Below are positions 9,201 to 26,652 of a stretch of 64,000 bases of DNA, piece after piece. The position numbers and the translations under genes are program-made. Numbering within the stretch: position 1 is the first letter of the stretch; each line of letters begins with the position of its first letter. The stretch is from Candidatus Eiseniibacteriota bacterium (GTDB lineage: Bacteria; Eisenbacteria; RBG-16-71-46; SZUA-252): the NCBI GenBank assembly GCA_031370645.1, contig JANMQV010000009.1, positions 25,675 through 89,674 of the forward strand, read 5' to 3'. The notes beneath the pieces are model-generated. The model saw nothing but the letters and a program-made list of their open reading frames with translations, searched no databases and had not been told where the DNA came from.

Positions 9201-10772
9201 GTGGACTTCTTGATCCACCACATGCTGCGGTCGAGCGCCGCCCGCCTCCCGGAGAAAGAGGCGCTGGTGTGCGGCGATCAGCGCCTTTCGTACGCCGAGG
9301 TGTGGGCGCGCGTCCGTGGCCTCGCCGCGGGAATCCGCCGCGCCGGGATCGAGCGCTCCGATCGCGTCGGGATCTTCCTCGACGCCTCCGTCGAGCAGTC
9401 GATCTCGATTTTCGCCGTCTCGCGCGCCGAGTGCGTCTTCGTGCCGATCAGCGGCGTCTTGCTTCAAGATCAGGTGGCGCACATCGTCCGCGATTGCCGC
9501 ATGCGATGCCTCATCGTCTCCGCGTCGAAACTGGAGATCGTGGTGCCGGTACTCTCGTCTATTCCGACGCTGGAGCGGCTCATCGTGGTCGGGGGAAGCG
9601 CGCCCGCGGGGACGCCGCTTCCGGCCGACTCGTACGAGGCGCTCTGCGGCGACGTGCCGGCCTCCGACGCCCCGGAAGCATCGATCGAGAAGGATCTCGC
9701 GGCGATCCTCTACACGTCCGGGTCGACCGGGAAGCCGAAGGGCGTCATGTTGAGCCACGGGCAGGTGATGGCCGGCGCCACGATCGTCTCGACCTATCTC
9801 GAGATCACGGAATCGGAGCGGATCCTCGCGGTCCTCCCGTTCAGTTTCGATGCCGGCATGAACCAGATCATGACGGCGTTCCAGCGCGGCGCGACAATCG
9901 TCCTGAAGCCGTTCGTCTTCGCCCGCGAGCTGGTGACGGCGCTGAAGAACGAACGGATCACGGGCCTCGCCGGCGTGCCGACGCTCTGGGGTCTCCTCGC
10001 CCAGCCGAGCTCGTCGCTCAGCAAGGGGACCTACCCGCATCTTCGCTACATCACGAACACCGGCGGCGTCATGCCGCAGGACGTCCTCGCCACGCTTCGG
10101 GCGGCGCTCCCGACGACGAAGGTCTTCCTCATGTACGGGCTGACCGAAGCGTTTCGCTCGACCTATCTGCCTCCCTCCGAACTCGACAAGCGACCGACCT
10201 CGATGGGGAAGGCGATTCCCGATACCGAAATCCTGGTGATCGACGAGAATGGCCGGCGGTGCGGGCCCGGCGAAATCGGCGAACTGGTCCATCGCGGCCC
10301 GACGGTGTCGATGGGGTATTGGGGACAGCCGGAACTGACGGCGCGCGTGCTCCGACCCCATCCATTCCTTCCGCCGGAGCTCGGCGACACGGAACGGGTC
10401 TGCTATTCCGGCGATCTCGTCAAGATGGACGAGGACGGCTTCCTCTACTTCATCGGGCGGCGAGACAATATGATCAAGTCGTCCGGATATCGAATCAGTC
10501 CGACCGAGGTCGAAGAGGTGCTCTTCCAGAGCGGAATGGTCCAACTTGCCGCTGTCATCGGCGTCCCGGATCCGATGCTTGGCGCGATCGTCGTCGCCTT
10601 CGTCGTGCCGAGCGAAGGAGGGTCGTTCGACCCCGCTGCGCTCCAGGCCTACTGCTCCGCGAAGATGCCGCCCTACATGTTGCCGAAGACAATCGAGGTC
10701 CTCGACCACTTGCCGAAGACGAGCAGCGGCAAGGTGGACTATCCCGCGCTGCGCCGTCGAACGGGGAGCTGA
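9201..10772 (+). CDS. AMP-forming acyl-CoA/acyl-ACP ligase, exosortase A system-associated type
   Basis: ILYTSGSTGKPKGV, MYGLTEAFRSTYL, YSGDLV, IKSSGYRISPTEVE, SGKVD; GTG start 9201. Confidence 0.9.
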   Translation: MDFLIHHMLRSSAARLPEKEALVCGDQRLSYAEVWARVRGLAAGIRRAGIERSDRVGIFLDASVEQSISIFAVSRAECVFVPISGVLLQDQVAHIVRDCRMRCLIVSASKLEIVVPVLSSIPTLERLIVVGGSAPAGTPLPADSYEALCGDVPASDAPEASIEKDLAAILYTSGSTGKPKGVMLSHGQVMAGATIVSTYLEITESERILAVLPFSFDAGMNQIMTAFQRGATIVLKPFVFARELVTALKNERITGLAGVPTLWGLLAQPSSSLSKGTYPHLRYITNTGGVMPQDVLATLRAALPTTKVFLMYGLTEAFRSTYLPPSELDKRPTSMGKAIPDTEILVIDENGRRCGPGEIGELVHRGPTVSMGYWGQPELTARVLRPHPFLPPELGDTERVCYSGDLVKMDEDGFLYFIGRRDNMIKSSGYRISPTEVEEVLFQSGMVQLAAVIGVPDPMLGAIVVAFVVPSEGGSFDPAALQAYCSAKMPPYMLPKTIEVLDHLPKTSSGKVDYPALRRRTGS

Positions 10773-14723: not shown

Positions 14724-16184
14724 TTACGGAGCGCGGAGGTTGAGGGGAACGCCGGGAGGTGTCGTATCGGCTCCCGTCGCGACCGACGACTTGAGAGCAG
14801 CCTGCAAGCGCCAGCCGGGATTCACGCCCTGTCCCGCATAGGCCCCCCGGTAGCGGAAGTCGGCCTTCGCGTCCGCATTGAAGTCGCGGTCGTAGGCGAC
14901 GTTGGTGGAAAAGGGTGAAAGATCGAGCGGCGTCCCGCTACAGCCGCTGCACGAAATCGCCGGGTAGAAGTCCATCTGCCCGAGGATCTCCGAGGGCGCC
15001 GTGAAGTAGGGGGAACCGTCCGAGGGGGTACCGATCACGTTGCTCCCGGCCGTCGGCACCGAACCGCCGAGTCCTGCCCCGCCGGTCACGATGAGATTCC
15101 CGCGCACGATTCCACCCTCACGCGGCGCGGTCGAGTACCGAATCCCGCCGCCGGAAACGCTGTAGACCGTGTTGTTGTAGACGTTCGTGAGCTTCAGCGG
15201 GCCGTTGTGATCGGTAAAGACCACCGACATCTGTCCGGCACCGGACGAAACGAACACGTTGTCGTGAACCGTCATTCGGCCCGTCGCCTGGAAAAGCGCT
15301 TCATTCGGGTTCTTGTAGAAGAAATTGCCGTAGATCTCGTAGAGGTCCTGGCTTCCCATTCCGGTGTCGGGGAAGGGATCGACGAGCAGATTGGGCCGCA
15401 CCGCGACCACCTGCCCCGGCGCCCAGTTGTTCTTCTCCTTGATGAAGACGTTGTTCCGGATGATCGTCCGATGAGGCTCCGGCGGGAGCGCGGTGGCCCA
15501 CGGCTGCGTTCCGTAGGCGAGTTGATTCTTGATCTCCATGTTGTAGCCGATGCTGTTGAGGAACAGATTCCCCTCGATCACGCCCGCGACGAACGGCTGC
15601 GTCCCGTCGGAGTTCCCGAGATAGATGCCGGTTCCCGCCTCGATGATCTTGTTGCCGCGAATCGTCCAGTTCCAAGCGGGGGACTTGGTGGAAATCGCGA
15701 CCGTCCCCTGACTGTTGTCCTGGCCGATCAGAGTGCAATTCTCGATGAGAATGTCGTGGGTTGGGTTTCCCTTCGCGTTGATGCCGTCGATGGCATCCAG
15801 ACCCGCGCTGTCGATCGTGACGTTCCGTAGCACGACGTACGATGTGCCGCCCAGCTGAACCGTGTTGCAGCAGGTCGACGCCGTCGTGATGGTCGCGGCA
15901 GGGCCCGACGCGGGCCCCGTGATGACGATCCACGCCGAAGGGGTGCCATTCTTTCCATCCAGAACGAGGCGATCCGGGTAATTGCCGGAAGGGAGGTAGA
16001 GCGTGTCGCCGGGCGCGAGCGATCCGACGAGCGTCCGATAGTAGCCTGCTTGGCCGGAGACCGCTCCCGGCGTCGCGACGAGGGTTCGAGACTCCGCCAT
16101 CGAAGGAAGGCTTACGCCCACCACGAGGAGCGCCAGAGCAACCGCGGCGCGAACCGGCGATGCCAATTCCACTCGACGATTCAT
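14724..16184 (-). CDS. Secreted right-handed parallel beta-helix protein (pectin lyase-like fold; polysaccharide-binding or lyase)
   Basis: Signal peptide, PGDTLYL start, repeated IxxNxI/F coils (IENCTL, IRGNKI, IEGNLF, IRNNVF, IYGNFF, VYNNTV); ends DTTPPGVPLNLRAP. Confidence 0.78.
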   Translation of the reverse strand: MNRRVELASPVRAAVALALLVVGVSLPSMAESRTLVATPGAVSGQAGYYRTLVGSLAPGDTLYLPSGNYPDRLVLDGKNGTPSAWIVITGPASGPAATITTASTCCNTVQLGGTSYVVLRNVTIDSAGLDAIDGINAKGNPTHDILIENCTLIGQDNSQGTVAISTKSPAWNWTIRGNKIIEAGTGIYLGNSDGTQPFVAGVIEGNLFLNSIGYNMEIKNQLAYGTQPWATALPPEPHRTIIRNNVFIKEKNNWAPGQVVAVRPNLLVDPFPDTGMGSQDLYEIYGNFFYKNPNEALFQATGRMTVHDNVFVSSGAGQMSVVFTDHNGPLKLTNVYNNTVYSVSGGGIRYSTAPREGGIVRGNLIVTGGAGLGGSVPTAGSNVIGTPSDGSPYFTAPSEILGQMDFYPAISCSGCSGTPLDLSPFSTNVAYDRDFNADAKADFRYRGAYAGQGVNPGWRLQAALKSSVATGADTTPPGVPLNLRAP

Positions 16185-16328
16185 GTCGTTCGCTCCGGGC
16201 TCGGCCGCACGAGAGTTAGGCGTAGGGAGTTGGATCCCGATGACCATCTCGCGCGTTGCGTGTTTGGGGTCGATCAGAACCGAGTACCCCGTTTTGGGCG
16301 AACTCGTTCCCGAATCCACCCGGAATTT

Positions 16329-16344
16329 AGCACGATTCGGGCCA
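16329..16344 (-). promoter_or_regulatory. sigma54 -24/-12 promoter for beta-helix gene
   Basis: Minus strand TGGCCCGAATCGTGCT (GG-N10-GC). Confidence 0.65.
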
Positions 16345-16608
16345 AGTCGCGCTCCCGTATGGAATCGAGCACTTGGCGCCGAATCATTCCCGATTCATCG
16401 ACAGAACGCGTGTCGCGGCTTGCACTCCGCGAGGGCGAAATCGCGAAGCGCGGTGAAAACCGAGCCGGTCGTTCCGCATCCAATGGTTCTACCCCTTCCG
16501 GCGGCAGGAAAAGGTGTGCCGTCTGGCCGGGGGACTAACGTCCCGGCAGGAAACGTGTTAGGCCGATCGATGCGCTCCCTGCAAACGCCGGGAGAAGCGG
16601 AGTGGCGT

Positions 16609-16624
16609 TGGTGCGAAATTTGCG
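16609..16624 (+). promoter_or_regulatory. sigma54 -24/-12 promoter for Fn3-CTD/xrtA operon
   Basis: TGGTGCGAAATTTGCG (GG-N10-GC), 55 bp before ATG. Confidence 0.6.
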
Positions 16625-16679
16625 TCATTCTTCGACGATCCTACCCTGTATGGGTTTAGCGTCCGATGCGGAGGCCTTG

Positions 16680-17723
16680 ATGAGAGTCCGATTCATGCCC
16701 GACGTGGTTCGCGCCCTGGCGTGCGCGGGTATCGTCTCAACCATGACGATTGCCCCGGCGGCGTTCTTCCTGCCGGCGACGCCTGCCTTCGCGCAGACCA
16801 GTGCCGCGAACAGCATGACACTACTTTGGACGGCGTCGGGAGATGACGGAGACCAGGGGCAGGTGAGCGGTTATGAAGCGCGCTTTCGCACCACCCCGCC
16901 TGCCGCGGGCGACACCCTCACCTGGTGGAATGGCGTGCCCTCCGGGCAACGAATCACCCTCGGCCCGCCTCGCGCGTCGGCTGGCGCCGATGATTCGACG
17001 AAAGTGACCGGATTGTCTCAGAACACTACGTATTACTTCGTGATTCGGGCCTTCGACGAACAGCCCAATTACTCCGCGTACTCGAACGTCGCTACCGGAA
17101 CTACCGCCTCATGCAACGCTCCCAGCGCGGCGCCAACCGGATTCGGAGCGGTTGCCGACACGGGACAGGTGACCGTCTCGTGGGGCGCCACGTCCGACCC
17201 GCTCGCGCTCTCCCTCCACTTGTACCGAGCTCAGGGTTCGACGGGCGCGTTCAACCAGATTCAGAATCTCTCGCCCGGCACGACCTCGTTCCTCGACACG
17301 TCCGTCTTGGCCGGCACGACCTATCGATATCGCGCGGCCTACATGGGCACGCTCTGCGAAGGCCCGACGACCGGCGTCGCGACCGTGACGCTGCCGGGGA
17401 CGCCGCCGCCACCGCCGCCCGCGGCCACGGCGGGCTCTTCGACCATTCACGCCTATCCGAACCCCGCGAGCAGCGCGACCGGATCGATTCGGATCGTCGT
17501 CGATGTGGACGCCACCGTGGCGACACCGGCCTACCTTCGTCTCTTCGACCTGAACGGACACTGGGTCGCCACGCTGGCCGATGGGAACTACCCGCCCGGT
17601 AAGACCGAGGTAGCCTGGAACCGGATCGGGCGCGACGGGCGAACCGTGGGACCCGGTTACTATGAAATCCTCGGGACCATAGGCATCACGCGGGTACGCG
17701 ACCGCATCGTCCTCCTTCCGTAG
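16680..17723 (+). CDS. Secreted protein with two Fn3 domains and FlgD/T9SS-like C-terminal domain
   Basis: GGAGG RBS; signal peptide; LLWTASGDDG..YYFVIRAFDE..SNVA; second Fn3; AYPNP..LFDLNG..W..G..VGPGYY. Confidence 0.8.
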   Translation: MRVRFMPDVVRALACAGIVSTMTIAPAAFFLPATPAFAQTSAANSMTLLWTASGDDGDQGQVSGYEARFRTTPPAAGDTLTWWNGVPSGQRITLGPPRASAGADDSTKVTGLSQNTTYYFVIRAFDEQPNYSAYSNVATGTTASCNAPSAAPTGFGAVADTGQVTVSWGATSDPLALSLHLYRAQGSTGAFNQIQNLSPGTTSFLDTSVLAGTTYRYRAAYMGTLCEGPTTGVATVTLPGTPPPPPPAATAGSSTIHAYPNPASSATGSIRIVVDVDATVATPAYLRLFDLNGHWVATLADGNYPPGKTEVAWNRIGRDGRTVGPGYYEILGTIGITRVRDRIVLLP

Positions 17724-19258
17724 TGAATCCCGCCCCTTCGCGCGGTTGGACCTCCGCGCTCGTCGCGTTCGCCGCGACGTTTGTCTTCGCGCTCCTCGTC
17801 TACGGGAGCACCATCGCGTCGCTCGTGAACATCTGGAGAATCTCGGACACCTTCGCGCATGGATTCCTCGTGCTGCCGGTCTGCGTCCTTCTTGCGTGGC
17901 GCTCGCGCGACCGGCTGGTAACGCTCCAGCCGCGACCCTACCCCCTCGCCCTGATCGGACTCCTTCCACTCGGCTTCGGGTGGATCATGGGCCGCGCCGC
18001 GAGCACGCTCTCCGTCGAACAGTTCTGTTTCGTGGCGATGATTCCGATCCTCGTGATTGCGCACTTCGGCCCGGCCGTCGCTCGCCGCCTCGCGTTTCCG
18101 CTCGCGTTTCTCTTCTTCGCCGTGCCGTTCGGCGATGTCTTCCAGCCGCGGCTCATGGAGATCACCGCCGGGTTCGCGGAGCGGACGCTTCGATGGAGCG
18201 GCGTGGAAGTTTCCCGGGAGGGGCTCTTCCTCGCCACGACGAATTCACGCTGGCGGGTCGTCGAGTCGTGCAGCGGGCTGCGATTCACGGTCGCGGGAGT
18301 CGTTCTGGCGACTCTCTTCGCCCACCTCTCGTACCGTTCGAATCTCAAGCGGGCCATCTTCGTCGCCTCGGCCGTGCCCGTTTCGATTCTCGCGAACGGG
18401 ATCCGCGCATACGTCCTCATCATGCTCGGACACCTGACCCACATGCGCCGTGGCGTGGGATTCGATCACTACATGTACGGATGGCTCGTCTTCACGCTCG
18501 TGATGGCCGCGTTCTTCATGATCGGCTCCGCATTTCGAGATCCTGAACGGCCGGCAACTCCCGCGGGTACGGGAGAAGGGGACGGTCCGCCGAGTGCGCC
18601 GCTCCCCCTCGGCCGTCGCGTCTCTGTCGCGGCTCTCGCGGCCATCTTCCTTGCCGCGTGGCCGGTGCTCGATGCGATCGGTTCGTCCCGCGGACTCGAT
18701 CGGACTCCCGTCGTTCTCGCCGCCCCGGCCCCGCAGCGTGGCTGGGTGCTCGAGGCCGTGCAGGACTCGCTTTGGAAGCCCCACTTTCTCGGCGCCACTT
18801 CCGAGCTGAATGAACGCTATGCCGGAGCCGGCGGCACCGTTCAATGCTTTGTCGCGTATTACACGAACCAGTCGCAGGGGCGGGAACTGCTGCACACGGG
18901 GAACCGGATCATCGTGATGGGAGATCCGACGTGGCTCGTCGTCGGGGAGGGGAGCCGCTCGTTGCCCGGCAGCTCGCCGCCCGCGTCGATCCGTGAGACC
19001 TCGGTTCGCGGTCCCGACGGTCCGATGGTCGTCTGGAACTGGTACTGGCTTCCCGACGAGTACACTTCCGACCCGTTCCGGGCAAAGTGGCTTCAAGCGA
19101 AGAGCCGCATGCTCGGCCGGGGAGACCGTGCCGCCGTGATCGTGCTCGCCGCGACCGCGCCCGATCCGCGCGACGCCGAACGGTTGCTGGCGCAATTCAG
19201 CGGCGACATGCTCCCTTCGATCCGACTCGCCCTTCGAAGCGCGCAACATTCCCGCTAG
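17723..19258 (+). CDS. xrtA: Exosortase A with C-terminal EpsI-like domain
   Basis: FAHGFLVLP, FLFFAVPFG, VVESCSGLRF (Cys), ANGIRAY (Arg), FDHYMYGWLVF (His); C-terminal QGRELL..WNWYW. Confidence 0.92.
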   Translation: MNPAPSRGWTSALVAFAATFVFALLVYGSTIASLVNIWRISDTFAHGFLVLPVCVLLAWRSRDRLVTLQPRPYPLALIGLLPLGFGWIMGRAASTLSVEQFCFVAMIPILVIAHFGPAVARRLAFPLAFLFFAVPFGDVFQPRLMEITAGFAERTLRWSGVEVSREGLFLATTNSRWRVVESCSGLRFTVAGVVLATLFAHLSYRSNLKRAIFVASAVPVSILANGIRAYVLIMLGHLTHMRRGVGFDHYMYGWLVFTLVMAAFFMIGSAFRDPERPATPAGTGEGDGPPSAPLPLGRRVSVAALAAIFLAAWPVLDAIGSSRGLDRTPVVLAAPAPQRGWVLEAVQDSLWKPHFLGATSELNERYAGAGGTVQCFVAYYTNQSQGRELLHTGNRIIVMGDPTWLVVGEGSRSLPGSSPPASIRETSVRGPDGPMVVWNWYWLPDEYTSDPFRAKWLQAKSRMLGRGDRAAVIVLAATAPDPRDAERLLAQFSGDMLPSIRLALRSAQHSR

Positions 19259-19437
19259 TTCCTCCCGCTTCACCTCCTCACCCCCAAACGATTCTCGTTC
19301 GATCGCGTGCAGCATGAGCGACCGCCGCGTGCGGATCGCGCCGTGCATCGTGCGCGTTCGGACACGCCTCGCGCGCTAGCTGCTTACCGACGACCGTGTT
19401 TGCAGCGTGCAGGGTGCACCGCGCGTACTCCGCGCCA

Positions 19438-19453
19438 TGGCACATTTCGTGCA
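19438..19453 (+). promoter_or_regulatory. sigma54 -24/-12 promoter for tandem Fn3 genes
   Basis: TGGCACATTTCGTGCA. Confidence 0.72.
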
Positions 19454-19682
19454 GACACTGGCGCGCGGTGGGATGGGGGTCCTGCCAAACATCAATCGAG
19501 TCCCATGAACGCATGCGACCCGCCCTCTCGGGTGGGGAGCAACACCGTGGGCAATCGGACCCAGGCGAACGCTCGCGTTCGGCTGGGTACAGAACTGCAT
19601 CTCGAGGAGGATCTCCATGCGCCGTTGCCTACCTGTTCCTCACCACCCCCTTCGCGGCCCTCGAATCGCGATGCGGGGAGTC

Positions 19683-20504
19683 ATGCGCCGTTCTCTCCTG
19701 ATCGGAGCGGCGATTCTCACCATGTTCGCGGCCGGAGTCGCGAAAGCACAGACCTCGGCCGACTCGTCGGTAGTTCTGCAGTGGACCGCGCCGGGAGATG
19801 ACGGCACGATCGGCCGCGCCACATCGTATGACCTTCGGTATCGCACGACCGCGATCTCGGCCACGGATACTCTGACGTGGTGGAACGGCGCGACTCCGGT
19901 AAGCGGCGAGCCCGTCCCGAGCACCTCCGGAGCGACCGATTCGATGCGAGTACGCGGTCTCACGCCCTTGACGACCTACTTCTTCATCGTGCGCGCGGCC
20001 GATGAGGTTCCGAATTGGTCGGGATACTCGAACGTGGCGAGCAAGACGACGTCCGGCGATGCGACGCCGCCGGCCGCCATTACCACGCTGGCGGTGACCG
20101 CTACGACCGGCTCCACCATGGCACTTCGGTGGAACGCTCCGGGTAACGACGGGAGCACGGGCACGGCCGCCAGCTACGATATCCGCTATTCGACGAGTCC
20201 CATCACCTCGGCCAATTGGACAACCGCAACGCAGGCGACCGGGGAACCGGCTCCCGCCGTCGCGGGGACGCAGCAGGTCTACACACTCCCCGGACTCTCC
20301 GGAAGTCAGACCTATTACGTGGCGATCAAGGCGACGGACGGCAGCGGTAACGTCGGAGCGCTGTCGAATGTCGTGAGCGGCACCACGGCCGACACGGTCG
20401 CGCCGGCCGCGGTTCGCGATCTCTCGATGCGCGATCTGCCGGCGGGCAATCAAGGGCCGCCGGTCGCGACGCTTCGCGGCGGCAACGAGCGTCATGATTC
20501 CTAA
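19683..20504 (+). CDS. Secreted tandem Fn3 protein without C-terminal sorting domain (alternative start 19617)
   Basis: Signal peptide MRRSLLIGAAILTMFAAGVAKA; LQWTAPGDDG and LRWNAPGNDG domains; tail DTVAPAAVRDLSMR. Confidence 0.8.
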   Translation: MRRSLLIGAAILTMFAAGVAKAQTSADSSVVLQWTAPGDDGTIGRATSYDLRYRTTAISATDTLTWWNGATPVSGEPVPSTSGATDSMRVRGLTPLTTYFFIVRAADEVPNWSGYSNVASKTTSGDATPPAAITTLAVTATTGSTMALRWNAPGNDGSTGTAASYDIRYSTSPITSANWTTATQATGEPAPAVAGTQQVYTLPGLSGSQTYYVAIKATDGSGNVGALSNVVSGTTADTVAPAAVRDLSMRDLPAGNQGPPVATLRGGNERHDS

Positions 20505-21459
20505 ACGTTCTCCTGGAGGTTGCTTCGGGGTTGCGAGGGCGGCGGCATTCGCCGCCCTCCTTCTCCCGGGATCGGCCGCGGCCGATTCAATCACGCTCTC
20601 GTGGACCGCGCCGGGCGACGACGGCAACACGGGCCGGGCGACCTCCTATGAGCTTCGCTACTCGGATCAGGCGATTGCGGGGCAGGACACGGTCTCGTGG
20701 TGGAACTCCGCCTCCGTGGCCGGCGCGCTTCCTTCGCCTCAGTCGGCGGGGGCTCGCGAGTCGTTCACGTTGCCGGGGCTGACGACCGGACTCACGTATT
20801 ACTTCGTCCTCCGCACGTCGGATGAAGTGCCGAACGTCTCCGGATTCTCGAACGCGCGCATGCGCCAGGTCGGAGCGGTCGCGCTCGCGACGCCGACCGG
20901 CTTCACCGCGCAGGCGGCGACGGGCGGAGTCCTGCTGTCGTGGCAAGAGCCGGCGTCGGGCGCGGGGGAGGGGTACCATCTCTATCGTCGCGAAGGCGCG
21001 AGCGGCGCGGACACGCTGCTTCGGACCTCACCGCTCGGCACGACGCGATGGACCGACCCGTCCGCCAAGGCGGGCACGGACTATGAATATCGGATCGCAA
21101 CCTATCTCGGCGCCGTGGAAGGCACGCCCGCCGTCGCGACCATCAACGTCCCGGCCGTCGCCATCGCCGAAGGCGTGACCGTGATCGAGGGCTATCCTAA
21201 TCCCGCTCACGGCAGCGTGACGTTTCGATTCCGCGCCGAGACGAGGGATGGATCACCAGGACACGCGCGAATCGTCGTCTTCGACATGGGCGGCCACCGA
21301 ATCGCTCAACTCCTCGATGGAGAGGTACCGTCCGGCGAGCAATCGATCCAGTGGCTCTGCCGCTCCGACCAGGGAAGCCCGGTGTCCCCGGGCCTCTACA
21401 ACGCCATCCTCGACGGACCCGAGGGGCGTTCCGTGATGCGCGTGGCTGTCGTTCCCTGA
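20494..21459 (+). CDS. Secreted two-Fn3 protein with FlgD/T9SS-like C-terminal domain
   Basis: Signal peptide; LSWTAPGDDG..YYFVLRTSDEVPN; GYPNP..VFDMGG..W..G..VSPGLY. Confidence 0.8.
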   Translation: MIPKRSPGGCFGVARAAAFAALLLPGSAAADSITLSWTAPGDDGNTGRATSYELRYSDQAIAGQDTVSWWNSASVAGALPSPQSAGARESFTLPGLTTGLTYYFVLRTSDEVPNVSGFSNARMRQVGAVALATPTGFTAQAATGGVLLSWQEPASGAGEGYHLYRREGASGADTLLRTSPLGTTRWTDPSAKAGTDYEYRIATYLGAVEGTPAVATINVPAVAIAEGVTVIEGYPNPAHGSVTFRFRAETRDGSPGHARIVVFDMGGHRIAQLLDGEVPSGEQSIQWLCRSDQGSPVSPGLYNAILDGPEGRSVMRVAVVP

Positions 21460-22768: not shown

Positions 22769-23497
22769 TTGAAGCAAAGCCGACTTTGGATCCCTGCTCT
22801 GATCATCGCCGTCATGGCGGTGAATGCTCCCGCGGCCTTTGCTATTCCCGCCCTGCAGCTTTATTGCCCGGACGCCACGTACGACCAGCTGAACGAAACG
22901 TGGGTGATCTCCGATAACACCTTCGAGCTCCAGGTCATCGGCGCCGTCGGGAGTTATGGATCGATCTACGACGTGACGCTCGCGGCCTCGTTCTACGGCA
23001 CCGGCGGCAACATGAGTATTCTCCCTGGACTCGCGGTCGACGCAGACTACGCCGACAAGCCGGGCTTCAAGGCAGGGGTCTCCAATCACGCCGAGTTCAA
23101 GAACGCGAACAGCCACGCGTTCTACGACATCGGCGACTTCACGAAGACGACCGACACGATTTACGATTACACTGGCGGACCGCTCGGTTCGGCGAAGCAG
23201 GGCGAGATCAAGTCGTACATGATCCACATCACTGGTTACGACGCGGTCCACTTCGACGCCTTCGACCACTACTACACGCAGCAGGGTCGGACGGCGACGT
23301 ACAAGCTCCACGGAGTCTTCGCCCCGTTCTCCCACGATGCGACGGGTGGCGGTGGTGAAGGTGGCAGCGGTGGAGGTGGCGGTAGCGGTGGTGGTGGCGG
23401 GAACGGCGGTGGCGGTGGCTCCACGGTTCCTGAGCCCGCGTCGCTGCTTCTTCTGGCTCCGGGTCTCGCGGGACTGCTGATCCGCCGCAAGAAGTAA
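22769..23497 (+). CDS. PEP-CTERM sorting-signal surface protein (resembles choice-of-anchor N family)
   Basis: Signal peptide; IPALQLY..YD..ETWV..HFDAF..FAPFSHDA; Gly-rich linker; VPEPASLLLLAPGLAGLLIRRKK. Family name is from memory and unverified. Confidence 0.88.
   Translation: MKQSRLWIPALIIAVMAVNAPAAFAIPALQLYCPDATYDQLNETWVISDNTFELQVIGAVGSYGSIYDVTLAASFYGTGGNMSILPGLAVDADYADKPGFKAGVSNHAEFKNANSHAFYDIGDFTKTTDTIYDYTGGPLGSAKQGEIKSYMIHITGYDAVHFDAFDHYYTQQGRTATYKLHGVFAPFSHDATGGGGEGGSGGGGGSGGGGGNGGGGGSTVPEPASLLLLAPGLAGLLIRRKK
23344..23419 (+). repeat. GGY-codon low-complexity repeat encoding poly-Gly linker
   Basis: ggtggcggtggtgaaggtggcagcggtggaggtggcggtagcggt... Confidence 0.8.
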
Positions 23498-24727: not shown

Positions 24728-24959
24728 GCAGCCCTCCTTACGGCGGCGCGCACGCGCCTGCATCGCGCACCCTCCCGGCGCGTTCGAGCCAATCTCTCTC
24801 CTTCTTCGAACCCTCATCGCGAGACGCCTCACTGTGCAATATGCGGCATCCGTACCGATCCGTGCGTGGCTGGTTCGACGCGCCGCCATGCGCGCGATGC
24901 ACCCCCTTGCGCCGCAACGAAGTCGAGGCTCGCGGAGCGCCGCAGCGCCGCTTTTCCCG

Positions 24960-24975
24960 TGGCACGCTAACTGCT
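24960..24975 (+). promoter_or_regulatory. sigma54 -24/-12 promoter for PorV-like gene
   Basis: TGGCACGCTAACTGCT. Confidence 0.7.
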
Positions 24976-25068
24976 TTAACGGGAAGTGGGTCTGCTGTGT
25001 CGCACCGCGCCAGGGGGTCGAAGGCCGGCGACCAGGCTATGGGGGATTCTTCAGACGGGAGATTTCTT

Positions 25069-26652
25069 ATGACTTGGTCCACTCCGGGTCGAACGACGCC
25101 GAAGCACGCGATGCTCCGACTCGCTCCTCTCGCTGTTCTGATGGCCACACTCCTGTACCCGGGGGTACGTGGCACCGCATCCGCCGCGCTCGTCGGCGGG
25201 TCGTCGGCGGACTTCCTTCAGTTCGAGGTCGGCGGTCGATCGGCGGGCATGGGCGGCGCCCAAACGGGCGTCGCGACGGGCGTGACGGCTCAGTTCTGGA
25301 ACCCCGCACTCTTGGCGACGCTTCAGAATCCGGAGGTCGGTGCGCTGCACGCCTCGTGGCTACAGGACCTGAGCTACGAGTGGGTCGGCTATGCGCGCCC
25401 CCTCGGATCGAGCCTCGGCGTTGGATCGGTCTCGGCGGCGTACTTCCATATGCCGAGCATCCAGGGCGTCGATGAGTTCAACAACCCGACCGGCACCTTC
25501 CGCGTCTACGACCTCGCGATCACGGCCGGACTCTCGCGGCCCGTCGCGCGCGGCGTGAACGTCGGCGCCAATCTCAAGATGATCCGGCAGAATCTCGCGA
25601 CCGTTTCAGCGACGGGCGTGGCCGCCGATTTCGGCGTCGCGGCGGCCGTGCTCGGCGGCACGGTCGGCCTCGCGGTCCAGAATGTGGGACCGAACATGGC
25701 GTACAGCGATGCCGCCTCCTACCCGCTACCGCAGCAGATCCGCTTCGGCGTGAGCCGCGGCTTTCTTCAAGAGCGCCTTCTTGTCGCGGCCGACTACAAC
25801 TCGCCCCGCAACTATTTTAACGACGTCCGACTCGGCACCGAGTTCAAGGCGCACCGGAACATCTCCATTCGTCTCGGTTATCGCTATGAACTCGGAAGCT
25901 CGAACGACCCGGTCACCGGGCTCTCGTACGGACTCGGCCTTCACTTCGGCCCGGCATCGCTCGATTACGCGATGACTCCGAGCAACGACTTCGACAACGT
26001 GCAGCGCTTCGCGTTCGGATACAGTTTCGGCGGCGGCGCCGAGGAGACGCCGGCGAAGCCGCAGGCGCCGAAGAAGCAGAAGCCGCTGCCGCCGGCGCCG
26101 CCGAAGAACCCGACCACGGTCGCCGCCGCGCCGAACGCGAAGAAGAATCCGAAGCCGGTCGCACCCGTGAGCATCCTTTCGGACACGAAGACGGTTGCCT
26201 CCGCGCCCGTGGCCCCGGTCGTGTCGCCTGATGTCCGCTCCGCGACGGAGACTGCCGCGCCGAAGTCGAACAACACTCCGACCGAGTCGGCGCCGAGCCC
26301 CGCTCCCGTCGTGATCGCGACGGCTCCGGAGAAGGCGCCCGAAACAATCGTGGAGAAGGCCGCTGAGAAGGCTCCGGAGAAGAGTGCCCCGAAGGAATCG
26401 AAGCCCGTGAAGGTCGTCCTCGAGCACCTCGTGTTGCTCCTCGGCTATAGCTCGATGGAAAGTGCTCAGTCCGAGATGAAGGCGCTCCAGCTACTCGGAT
26501 TCAGGACGAAGGACGCGTCGATAGTGGCCGACCCGAAGGGGGGCTACGCCATTCGCCTCGCGCAGATGAAGTCGAAGGACAGCGCGGAGGGAATGGTTTC
26601 GGATCTCGCTCGGATGTCGTTTCGGGCCGTGGTACAGACCGTCCAGCGCTAG
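25069..26652 (+). CDS. PorV/PorQ-family outer-membrane beta-barrel fused via Pro/Ala/Lys linker to SPOR-like domain
   Basis: ADFLQFEVGGRSAGMGGA..FWNPALLA, alternating barrel strands ending FAFGYSF; C-terminal LLGYSSMESA..YAIRLAQMKSKDSAEGM. Confidence 0.75.
   Translation: MTWSTPGRTTPKHAMLRLAPLAVLMATLLYPGVRGTASAALVGGSSADFLQFEVGGRSAGMGGAQTGVATGVTAQFWNPALLATLQNPEVGALHASWLQDLSYEWVGYARPLGSSLGVGSVSAAYFHMPSIQGVDEFNNPTGTFRVYDLAITAGLSRPVARGVNVGANLKMIRQNLATVSATGVAADFGVAAAVLGGTVGLAVQNVGPNMAYSDAASYPLPQQIRFGVSRGFLQERLLVAADYNSPRNYFNDVRLGTEFKAHRNISIRLGYRYELGSSNDPVTGLSYGLGLHFGPASLDYAMTPSNDFDNVQRFAFGYSFGGGAEETPAKPQAPKKQKPLPPAPPKNPTTVAAAPNAKKNPKPVAPVSILSDTKTVASAPVAPVVSPDVRSATETAAPKSNNTPTESAPSPAPVVIATAPEKAPETIVEKAAEKAPEKSAPKESKPVKVVLEHLVLLLGYSSMESAQSEMKALQLLGFRTKDASIVADPKGGYAIRLAQMKSKDSAEGMVSDLARMSFRAVVQTVQR

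What the first reader, a model, noticed from the sequence alone, without database searches (positions are those of the whole stretch)
14724..21459. Candidate undescribed Fn3 donor-strand fibre (tip, shaft, anchors) wrapped around exosortase A
Seen: in all three Fn3 proteins (16680, 19683, 20494) the first domain starts almost immediately after the predicted signal peptide at the Trp-bearing strand B (NSMTLLWTASGDDG, SSVVLQWTAPGDDG, DSITLSWTAPGDDG). Their internal domains have a normal strand-A lead-in (DATPPAAITTLAV, APSAAPTGFGA, LATPTGFTA). Two proteins carry an orphan strand-A-like peptide at or near the C-terminus with no domain after it: 19683 (DTVAPAAVRDLSMR, from 20391) and the beta-helix protein (DTTPPGVPLNLRAP-stop). 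Established: donor-strand complementation builds chaperone-usher and type V pili. Inference: the beta-helix protein is a donor-only tip, 19683 is an acceptor+donor subunit able to polymerise head-to-tail, and 16680/20494 are acceptor-only caps carrying the FlgD/T9SS-like CTD for export or anchoring. All three transcription units have sigma54-type promoters.
Basis: partly seen in the sequence, partly recalled or inferred. Interest (0 to 1): 0.88.

Follow-up and report, generated by a model that had tools for sequence, protein, structure and literature searches.

The report
Split-Fn3 plug-and-socket surface docking system
Several secreted proteins of this soil bacterium end in a spare first strand of a fibronectin-type domain, while neighbouring surface-anchored proteins begin with that domain minus its first strand, so the parts probably snap together to hang enzymes on the cell surface.

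Summary
Three secreted Fn3 proteins start at strand B directly after the signal peptide. The two-Fn3 protein and the beta-helix protein each carry an orphan strand-A peptide at the C-terminal end.

- **Conservation:** 104 of 105 orthologues of the two-Fn3 protein keep both features.
- **Monomer models:** AlphaFold2 shows no strand A in the first domain and no self-complementation. The beta-helix tail is free.
- **Dimer model:** ESMFold2 puts one copy's orphan strand against strand B of the next, head to tail (ipSAE 0.59, best control 0.00).
- **New here:** in related Eisenbacteria loci, 17 neighbouring secreted proteins of unrelated folds (beta-helix, Kelch propeller, PcRGLX-like, metallophosphatase) end in the same tag. 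This genome has a second such protein elsewhere.

I therefore read it as a dockerin-like docking system. Two anchors with type IX secretion (T9SS) C-terminal domains present sockets, an adaptor has both socket and plug, and enzymes carry plugs.

A long homopolymeric fibre is possible but not shown. The exosortase is a positional neighbour with its own PEP-CTERM substrates. Only one sigma-54 promoter is firmly supported.

I found no description in print. This scan noted similar orphan-Fn3-strand tags on other DNA (e1-1187756, e1-4915111). No binding has been measured.

The parts
14724..16184 (-). Secreted right-handed beta-helix protein (486 aa from ATG 16184; the ORF is open to GTG 16319). It is a polysaccharide lyase/epimerase-like cargo.
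   Evidence: Pfam Beta_helix 30.6 bits and NosD 24.5 bits, both over cut-off. AF2 pLDDT 93.8. Foldseek matches GH136, AlgE4, PL6 lyases and RbmB.
14727..14768 (-). C-terminal orphan strand-A tag of the beta-helix protein: its last 14 residues, directly before the stop.
   Evidence: Conserved in 4 of 4 syntenic orthologues. 91 of 120 nearest homologues end in a tag-like tail by a loose pattern, 38 by the strict one. In the AF2 model the last 19 residues have pLDDT below 50 and no secondary structure.
16680..17723 (+). Anchor A (P0002): signal peptide, Fn3 lacking strand A (from about 16794), a complete second Fn3, a Pro-rich linker, and a T9SS-type CTD (about 17433-17720).
   Evidence: The fn3 match starts at profile position 10. 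The N-terminus is conserved in 10 of 11 orthologues shown. The CTD scores 37.6 bits, E 3.2e-10, against this genome's own CTD profile but only 16.2 bits against TIGR04183, cut-off 23.
17723..19258 (+). Exosortase A fused to an EpsI-like domain. It is a positional neighbour, not part of the Fn3 module.
   Evidence: TIGR03109 287.7 bits against cut-off 208, and TIGR02914 99 bits. Present in 12 of 17 related Eisenbacteria-type loci and absent from the Fn3 loci of other phyla.
19438..19452 (+). Sigma-54-type promoter ahead of the adaptor/anchor B unit.
   Evidence: One mismatch to TGGCAC-N5-TTGC. A like site lies upstream in 15 of 17 orthologous loci.
19617..20504 (+). Adaptor/extender (P0004): signal peptide (to 19748; alternative start 19683), Fn3 lacking strand A (19749 to about 20060), a complete Fn3 (to about 20387), the orphan strand A, and a variable tail.
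20391..20432 (+). Orphan strand-A donor peptide of P0004 (mature residues 215-228).
   Evidence: D215 and P219 are invariant; A220, R223, L225 and S226 are at 90% or more. This is the interface segment 214-228 in the dimer model.
20494..21459 (+). Anchor B (P0005): signal peptide, Fn3 lacking strand A (from about 20584), a second Fn3, and a T9SS-type CTD (about 21184-21453). Its start overlaps the P0004 stop by 11 nt.
   Evidence: The fn3 match starts at profile position 12. The gene follows the adaptor in 16 of 17 loci. The CTD scores 50.8 bits, E 2.5e-14, against the genome's own CTD profile.

Best explanation
This is a split-Fn3 docking system that works by strand complementation.

The parts:
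- Two anchor proteins (P0002, P0005) carry a type IX secretion C-terminal domain. Each presents at its mature N-terminus an Fn3 domain that lacks strand A, the socket.
- Secreted cargo proteins end in a free peptide of about 14 residues that is an Fn3 strand A, the plug. In this genome they are the beta-helix polysaccharide lyase/epimerase-like protein and a PcRGLX-like protein on another contig.
- The two-Fn3 protein P0004 has both a socket and a plug, so it can sit between anchor and cargo as an extender and may chain with itself.

How it works: the plug pairs antiparallel with strand B of the socket and rebuilds a complete domain from two chains. The expected product is cell surface, then anchor, then zero or more adaptors, then an enzyme at the distal end.

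What is shown: the complementary anatomy, its conservation, the co-location of plugs and sockets, the free tails, and a model of tail-in-socket pairing.

What is inferred: actual binding, which plug fits which socket, chain length, and where assembly happens. Cargo and adaptor have only Sec signals, so they would have to dock in the periplasm and ride out with the anchor, or leave by another route.
For: Anatomy and conservation:
- First domains start at strand B. The orphan strand is kept in 104 of 105 adaptor orthologues and 4 of 4 syntenic beta-helix orthologues.
- The pieces add up. In 221 of 255 covalent domains, 13 residues lie between the strand-A Leu and the strand-B Trp. Cargo tags leave 3 residues after that Leu/Val in 17 of 19 cases, and sockets have 11 residues before the Trp in 93 of 105, a sum of 14.

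A modular tag:
- 17 non-Fn3 ORFs in 12 related loci end in the tag.
- Their folds are unrelated: beta-helix, Kelch, PcRGLX-like, metallophosphatase, and three with no Pfam family.
- 17 of 18 examined have signal-peptide-like starts.
- The strict tag hits 18 of 403 local ORFs, against 2 of 5924 genome-wide.

Plug and socket travel together among 107 complete Fn3 ORFs:
- 26 of 68 that start at strand B carry an orphan strand.
- 0 of 30 with a complete first domain do.
- 33 of those 68 carry the CTD.

Models:
- The AF2 monomer shows no cis complementation; pLDDT in the tail falls from 90 to 44.
- The last 19 residues of the beta-helix model are disordered.
- The ESMFold2 homodimer scores ipSAE 0.59, 0.56 and 0.62, against 0.00 for the best of 3 controls. 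The tool's calibration: the mark was reached by 20 of 30 proteins solved as pairs of one chain and 1 of 23 solved as single chains. These counts hold only roughly because my own alignment was used.
- The runs agree in at least 86% of contacts, and partner pLDDT is at least 82.
- The interface is residues 214-228 and 230 of one copy with 8-13, 15-20, 24, 65, 79-87, 89-97 and 99 of the other. It is asymmetric, and L225 pairs near W12 as L114 does near W128 inside domain 2.

Alternative modules in the same slot: beta-helix homologues carry there a T9SS CTD (P0243), MYXO-CTERM-like tails (P0220, P0226, P0245), PEP-CTERM-like tails (P0225, P0228, P0232, P0235) or a complete Fn3 in cis (P0241).

Secretion machinery: SprA scores 517 bits, PorU 445.6 bits, and 53 CTD matches pass the cut-off.

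Other phyla: Zixibacteria and Ignavibacteria loci pair a socket-plus-plug Fn3 gene with a socket-plus-CTD gene, without XrtA.
Against: - No binding has been measured.
- The complex model may simply complete a fold it has seen in every Fn3 structure, and only the adaptor-adaptor pair was modelled.
- Cargo and adaptor lack a CTD, so their route across the outer membrane is unexplained.
- The curated T9SS CTD model does not reach its cut-off on either anchor (16.2 and 16.1 bits against 23).
- In 80 metagenome loci of the beta-helix family, no CTD ORF was found and only one Fn3 hit of this type, a weak one in L117 (best domain E 0.004). About 8 of these loci, by my reading of the printed C-termini, have tag-like ends. 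The tail therefore also occurs where no socket is encoded nearby.
- Cargo-to-anchor counts per locus are not consistently equal. Several loci show 1 cargo and 2 anchors.
Confidence: 0.6

Rival explanations
1. P0004 polymerises head to tail into a long shaft, capped distally by the beta-helix tip and rooted on the CTD anchors, making a pilus-like appendage.
For: - P0004 has one socket and one plug.
- The dimer model is open-ended and asymmetric, leaving a free socket and a free plug.
- No cis complementation appears in the monomer model.
- Minimal loci in other phyla hold only a socket-plus-plug protein and a socket-plus-CTD protein, with no other tagged ORF within the flanks.
- L002 has two tandem adaptor genes.
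Against: - Nothing shows more than two units joining.
- Plugs and sockets in this genome balance at 3 and 3, so a closed set without polymerisation is possible.
- The diversity of tagged enzymes fits a display system better than a fibre with one tip.
- No assembly machinery such as an usher or a FimA family was found.
Confidence: 0.22
2. The C-terminal peptide is a sorting signal read by some export or anchoring machinery, not by the Fn3 sockets. The truncated first domains would be unrelated to it.
For: - The peptide sits at the extreme C-terminus of unrelated secreted proteins.
- In homologues the same slot holds recognised sorting signals: MYXO-CTERM-like, PEP-CTERM-like and T9SS CTD.
- Tag-like ends occur in beta-helix loci without nearby sockets.
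Against: - The peptide matches the strand-A lead-in of the internal domains of this same Fn3 family.
- The strand it matches is exactly the one missing next door, and the lengths are complementary.
- In P0004 the peptide is followed by 14-30 more residues, so it is not terminal.
- Among Fn3 proteins, orphan strands occur only in those that start at strand B (26 against 0).
Confidence: 0.12
3. There is no interaction. The tails and truncated domains are harmless leftovers of domain shuffling at Fn3 boundaries.
For: - Fn3 repeats recombine easily. The family is very large: 19,103 cluster representatives at E up to 0.001.
- Covalent multi-Fn3 forms with the same overall layout exist.
Against: Near-invariant conservation of both features sits beside a variable tail. 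The same tag occurs on unrelated folds next to sockets. The join also has a fixed length relation.
Confidence: 0.05

Closest known systems
Type V pili of Bacteroidota (FimA/Mfa1). The description of this family is recalled; I saw only search listings and abstracts.
   Same: A subunit whose N-terminal strand is absent is completed by C-terminal strand(s) of the neighbouring subunit. Assembly is head to tail on the cell surface, in the same bacterial superphylum.
   Different: - No FimA-family match in the genome.
- No lipoprotein signal and no protease-removed strand: the socket is made directly by signal peptidase.
- The domains are ordinary Fn3.
- Anchoring is by T9SS CTD proteins.
- The plug is also carried by unrelated enzymes.
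Donor-strand complementation in chaperone-usher pili (Fim/Pap). Recalled; passages seen in PMC13278184.
   Same: An incomplete Ig-like fold is completed by a strand from another chain.
   Different: There the missing strand is the last one and the donor is an N-terminal extension. A chaperone and an usher are needed; no usher was found here.
Cohesin-dockerin docking in cellulosomes (recalled).
   Same: A short C-terminal module on many unrelated enzymes docks them to an anchored scaffold protein.
   Different: No cohesin or dockerin Pfam match on any of the five proteins. The proposed contact is fold completion by one strand, not two folded modules.
SpyTag/SpyCatcher (engineered split CnaB2 domain; recalled).
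   Same: A strand-sized tag completes a truncated beta-sandwich catcher.
   Different: That system is engineered and locked by an isopeptide bond. Here it is natural, and no covalent lock is indicated.
T9SS cargo with a C-terminal sorting domain (abstract of PMC11285876 seen in the listing).
   Same: The anchors end in an Ig-like CTD of this genome's T9SS type, and the machinery is present.
   Different: The curated model is below cut-off. The anchors' passenger is only a stalk with a socket, and the enzymes themselves lack a CTD.

Membership tests
Fibronectin type III domain (PF00041) | Profile match over the gathering score | tested here: met
   28.5, 56.3 and 51.7 bits against cut-off 25. 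Foldseek finds tandem FnIII structures at E about 1e-9.
Fibronectin type III domain (PF00041) | Complete seven-strand sandwich including strand A | tested here: not met
   The first domains match from profile position 10-12 only. The AF2 model of P0004 domain 1 has no strand A.
T9SS type A sorting domain (TIGR04183 / PF18962) | Curated profile over cut-off at the C-terminus | tested here: inconclusive
   16.2 and 16.1 bits against cut-off 23, and PF18962 15.9 against 27. A profile built from 42 of this genome's own passing CTDs gives 50.8 and 37.6 bits over its full length.
T9SS | Translocon SprA and sortase PorU in the genome | tested here: met
   SprA 517.1 bits summed. PorU 445.6 bits against cut-off 420.
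Exosortase A (TIGR03109) | Profile over cut-off | tested here: met
   287.7 bits against 208.
PEP-CTERM substrates of exosortase | C-terminal PEP-CTERM motif on the Fn3 or beta-helix proteins | tested here: not met
   No such match. The five genome matches lie elsewhere, one at window 22769-23497.
Chaperone-usher pili | Outer-membrane usher (PF00577) | tested here: not met
   No match in a genome that is 95% complete. The PapD-like chaperone was not searched.
Type V pili (FimA/Mfa1) | FimA-family fold (PF06321) and a lipoprotein precursor | tested here: not met
   No PF06321 match. The P0004 signal peptide has an A-x-A|Q site and no Cys in its hydrophobic or cleavage region.
Cohesin-dockerin | Cohesin or dockerin domains | tested here: not met
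   None in Pfam scans of the five proteins.
Donor-strand complementation (mechanistic class) | Incomplete beta-sandwich plus a spare matching strand on a partner chain, pairing in the native register | tested here: met
   Met in silico only. Physical binding cannot be tested with these tools.

The most novel reading that the evidence does not exclude
A natural tag-and-catcher system. A strand-A peptide of about 14 residues at the C-terminus is enough to attach any secreted protein to Fn3 sockets on T9SS-anchored stalks. Untagged-for-T9SS enzymes would then ride out through the type IX translocon as passengers of their anchors. A socket-plus-plug adaptor would chain to set the distance from the cell. 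The same principle would operate across Eisenbacteria, Zixibacteria and Ignavibacteria, and possibly further.
Probability: 0.35. Interest if true: 0.88.

Novelty: new variant of a known kind. Interest (0 to 1): 0.8.

Why it matters
If the plugs bind the sockets, this would be a third way of fixing proteins to a Gram-negative surface, besides covalent sorting signals and cohesin-dockerin pairs. It would rest on the pilus principle of fold completion but be used to display interchangeable enzymes.

It would explain how enzymes without a type IX sorting domain reach the surface in these uncultured soil phyla. It would give a testable function to a very common truncated Fn3 architecture. It could also supply a small natural peptide tag and protein socket for protein engineering.

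Tried and rejected
**Rejected readings**
- P0004 as a frameshifted or truncated gene: about 105 orthologues keep the same length and end.
- A beta-helix tail that packs on its own fold: it is disordered in the model.
- XrtA as part of the module.

**Searches that gave little**
- The strict sigma-54 consensus gave 3 matches in the window against 1.92 expected; 30 of 100 shuffles did as well.
- The representative-library search ranked only giant multi-Fn3 proteins, so it gave family size but little on architecture.
- The metagenome scan for beta-helix relatives found no neighbouring sockets, CTD genes or XrtA in 80 loci.
- The curated CTD model is below its cut-off.
- ESM Atlas gave only a lead, PcRGLX-like at score 0.95, for the second cargo, which has no Pfam family.
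- C-termini that looked dockerin-like by eye in L024, L034 and L080 were not called dockerin by Pfam.

**Not attempted**
- A cargo-versus-anchor count per locus gave no consistent ratio.
- Plug-socket covariation was not attempted, because only about 12 loci pair the two.
- Supplementary files of papers were not consulted.

Full report
**What is there**

The stretch holds five genes:
- A divergent beta-helix gene at 14724-16184 (-).
- P0002 at 16680-17723.
- An XrtA-EpsI fusion at 17723-19258.
- P0004 at 19617-20504.
- P0005 at 20494-21459, which overlaps the P0004 stop by 11 nt.

Pfam and NCBIfam confirm Fn3 domains in P0002, P0004 and P0005, a right-handed beta-helix, and exosortase A (287.7 bits against cut-off 208). 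Names given by public sources to close homologues place the organism in Candidatus Eisenbacteria.

The surroundings are a polysaccharide locus. It has a Wzy-like gene, a polysaccharide deacetylase and a PorV-like barrel.

**The observation**

The three Fn3 proteins each begin their first domain at the Trp-bearing strand B, a few residues after an A-x-A-type cleavage site. Their Pfam fn3 matches start at profile position 10, 10 and 12 of 84. Their internal domains have a normal strand-A lead-in.

P0004 carries an extra strand-A-like peptide from nt 20391, after its second domain, with no domain behind it. The beta-helix protein ends in a similar peptide directly before its stop. Only these three ORFs in the 3.0-Mb genome (95% complete) carry this Fn3 subtype's Trp motif.

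**Conservation**

P0004 has 1417 relatives among the 8000 candidates scored. The set of 105 proteins of 270-320 aa, query included, is 64-88% identical to the query. Their features:
- The mature start is nearly invariant, with Gln at +1 in every row.
- 93 of 105 have 11 residues between that Gln and the Trp.
- 104 of 105 keep the orphan strand motif.
- A variable 14-30 residues follow the motif, with no further Fn3 motif.

A scan of one genome per species returned 80 loci. The 17 closest, L001-L017, are mostly labelled Eisenbacteria. Gene order there:

| Feature | Loci of 17 |
|---|---|
| Anchor B follows the adaptor | 16 |
| XrtA upstream | 12 |
| Anchor A present | 11 |
| Divergent beta-helix gene | 4 |

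In those four the beta-helix tail is kept, including one orthologue only 29% identical. In a sample of 201 genomes of the phylum, 75 have a strong match to the adaptor profile: 30 of 40 in the window's own family and 41 of 87 in a second family.

**Structure models**

- AlphaFold2 of mature P0004 (pLDDT 85.9) gives a first domain without strand A and a second domain with one. The tail has no secondary structure, and its confidence falls from 90 to 44. It does not fold back.
- AlphaFold2 of the beta-helix protein (pLDDT 93.8, pTM 0.92) leaves the last 19 residues below pLDDT 50. Its nearest solved folds are GH136 lacto-N-biosidases, mannuronan C-5 epimerase AlgE4, PL6 alginate lyases, chondroitinase B and the Vibrio polysaccharide lyase RbmB.
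- Two copies of mature P0004 folded with ESMFold2 scored ipSAE 0.59, 0.56 and 0.62, against 0.00 for the best of three controls.
- On the tool's calibration, that mark was reached by 20 of 30 proteins solved as pairs of one chain and 1 of 23 solved as single chains. These counts hold only roughly, because my own alignment was used.
- The three runs agree in at least 86% of contacts, and partner pLDDT is at least 82.
- The interface is the orphan strand (214-228, 230) of one copy against strand B and the F/G face (8-13, 15-20, 24, 65, 79-87, 89-97, 99) of the other. It is asymmetric, and its register is that of an intact domain.

This shows compatibility, not binding. A model that has seen thousands of Fn3 domains may simply complete the fold.

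In the Eisenbacteria-type loci the divergent upstream genes vary, yet they end alike. Seventeen non-Fn3 ORFs in 12 loci finish with the same tag, usually three residues after its Leu/Val. Their families:
- Beta-helix.
- Kelch propellers.
- PcRGLX-like proteins.
- Purple-acid-phosphatase-like metallophosphatases.
- Three with no Pfam family.

Seventeen of 18 examined have signal-peptide-like starts. A strict pattern for the tag hits 18 of 403 ORFs in these loci, 1 of 852 in the other 63 loci, and 2 of 5924 in the window's genome. The two genome hits are the beta-helix protein and a 708-aa secreted protein on contig C166. That protein has no Pfam family and resembles PcRGLX-like proteins only by language-model features, which is a lead, not a test.

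The lengths fit:
- 13 residues separate the strand-A Leu from the strand-B Trp in 221 of 255 covalent domains.
- The split pieces supply 3 + 11 = 14.

Among 107 complete Fn3 ORFs, orphan strands occur in 26 of 68 that start at strand B and in 0 of 30 with a complete first domain. 33 of the 68 end in the CTD. Many of these ORFs are orthologues, so the counts are not independent.

**Anchors**

The curated T9SS CTD model stays below its cut-off on both anchors. A profile built from 42 of this genome's own CTDs matches P0005 at 50.8 bits and P0002 at 37.6 bits over its full length.

The genome has SprA, PorU and 53 CTD matches over the cut-off. After CTD processing such proteins are held by their C-terminal end; this is established knowledge of T9SS, recalled. 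The socket would then point outward, and each added unit would attach by its own C-terminus. That leaves the enzyme distal.

**The tag's slot**

Of the 120 nearest beta-helix homologues, 91 end in a tag-like tail by a loose pattern and 38 by the strict one. Others carry something else at the same position:
- A T9SS CTD.
- MYXO-CTERM-like or PEP-CTERM-like tails.
- A complete Fn3 in cis.

This supports a surface-anchoring role for the slot.

In 80 metagenome loci of a wider branch of this family, about 8, by my reading of the printed C-termini, have tag-like ends. No CTD gene or XrtA lies in the flanks, and the only Fn3 hit of this type is one weak match in L117. So the tail also exists where its partner, if any, is encoded elsewhere.

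**Other phyla**

Zixibacteria and Ignavibacteria loci hold socket-plus-plug proteins with one to three Fn3 domains, next to socket-plus-CTD proteins and without XrtA. Single polypeptides of about 585 aa there align first with P0004, through its orphan strand, and then with P0005 from its strand B. The covalent equivalent of the proposed joint therefore exists. This follows partly from their being tandem repeats.

**Exosortase and promoters**

XrtA has its own candidate substrates: five PEP-CTERM matches, one at window 22769-23497. None of the Fn3 or beta-helix proteins has that motif. I treat XrtA as a neighbour.

The sigma-54-type site before P0004 is conserved in 15 of 17 loci. The sites before P0002 and the beta-helix gene are 2-mismatch matches of modest weight.

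**Verdict**

The most likely reading (0.6) is a strand-complementation docking system of anchors, adaptor and tagged enzymes. A long fibre is a sub-case that remains open (0.22).

It is not a chaperone-usher or type V pilus by family: no usher and no FimA family were found. It works most like type V pili in topology and like cohesin-dockerin in use.

**In print and in this scan**

Searches for donor strand with Fn3 and T9SS, for strand complementation with Fn3, and for Eisenbacteria with exosortase found no description. I read passages of PMC13278184, a CPR pilus with donor-strand exchange that is a different system. I also read passages of PMC12646305, which has nothing relevant. For the Q-rule papers I saw only the listing and abstracts.

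Earlier notes of this scan report orphan Fn3-strand tags on other DNA, including a Parcubacteria locus and a set of beta-helix paralogues. I saw them after finding the tags here. They agree with this reading, but they are not independent evidence.

Noticed in passing
G000 contig C166:8302-10539 (+), locus L081:4417-6540: A second plug-only secreted protein (708 aa) in the same genome, far from the locus, ends in the same tag. It has no Pfam family. It is PcRGLX-like by language-model features only.
   Followed up: partly
window 22769-23497 (+): A small protein with a PEP-CTERM motif (24.7 bits against cut-off 20.7), a likely substrate of the neighbouring XrtA. Four more PEP-CTERM matches lie elsewhere in the genome.
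   Followed up: partly
window 19749 (mature +1 of P0004) and 16794 (P0002): Gln is invariant at the first mature residue in all 105 adaptor sequences. This recalls the Bacteroidetes Q-rule, whose abstract says it does not hold across the whole FCB group.
   Followed up: no
L024:10262-10873, L034:7001-7636, L080:8061-9293: Short proteins with a strand-B-first Fn3 end in Asp/Gly-rich repeats that look dockerin-like by eye. Pfam did not call a dockerin.
   Followed up: partly
L010:5878-7637 and L006:4233-6057: In two related genomes, XrtA (three ORF pieces) and anchor A (two pieces) are broken across frames. These are either assembly errors or decaying genes.
   Followed up: no
L002:7920-8864 and 9232-10161: Two tandem adaptor genes in one related locus.
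   Followed up: no
window 24841-26652 (+): A PorV-family (UPF0164) barrel gene lies just downstream of the module.
   Followed up: no
proteins P0174, P0396, P0242: Beta-helix homologues with a tag-like end occur in cultured Lentisalinibacter species (Gammaproteobacteria) and in Acidobacteria bacterium Mor1. T9SS anchors are not expected in Gammaproteobacteria (recalled; not checked in these genomes). Their partners are unknown.
   Followed up: no
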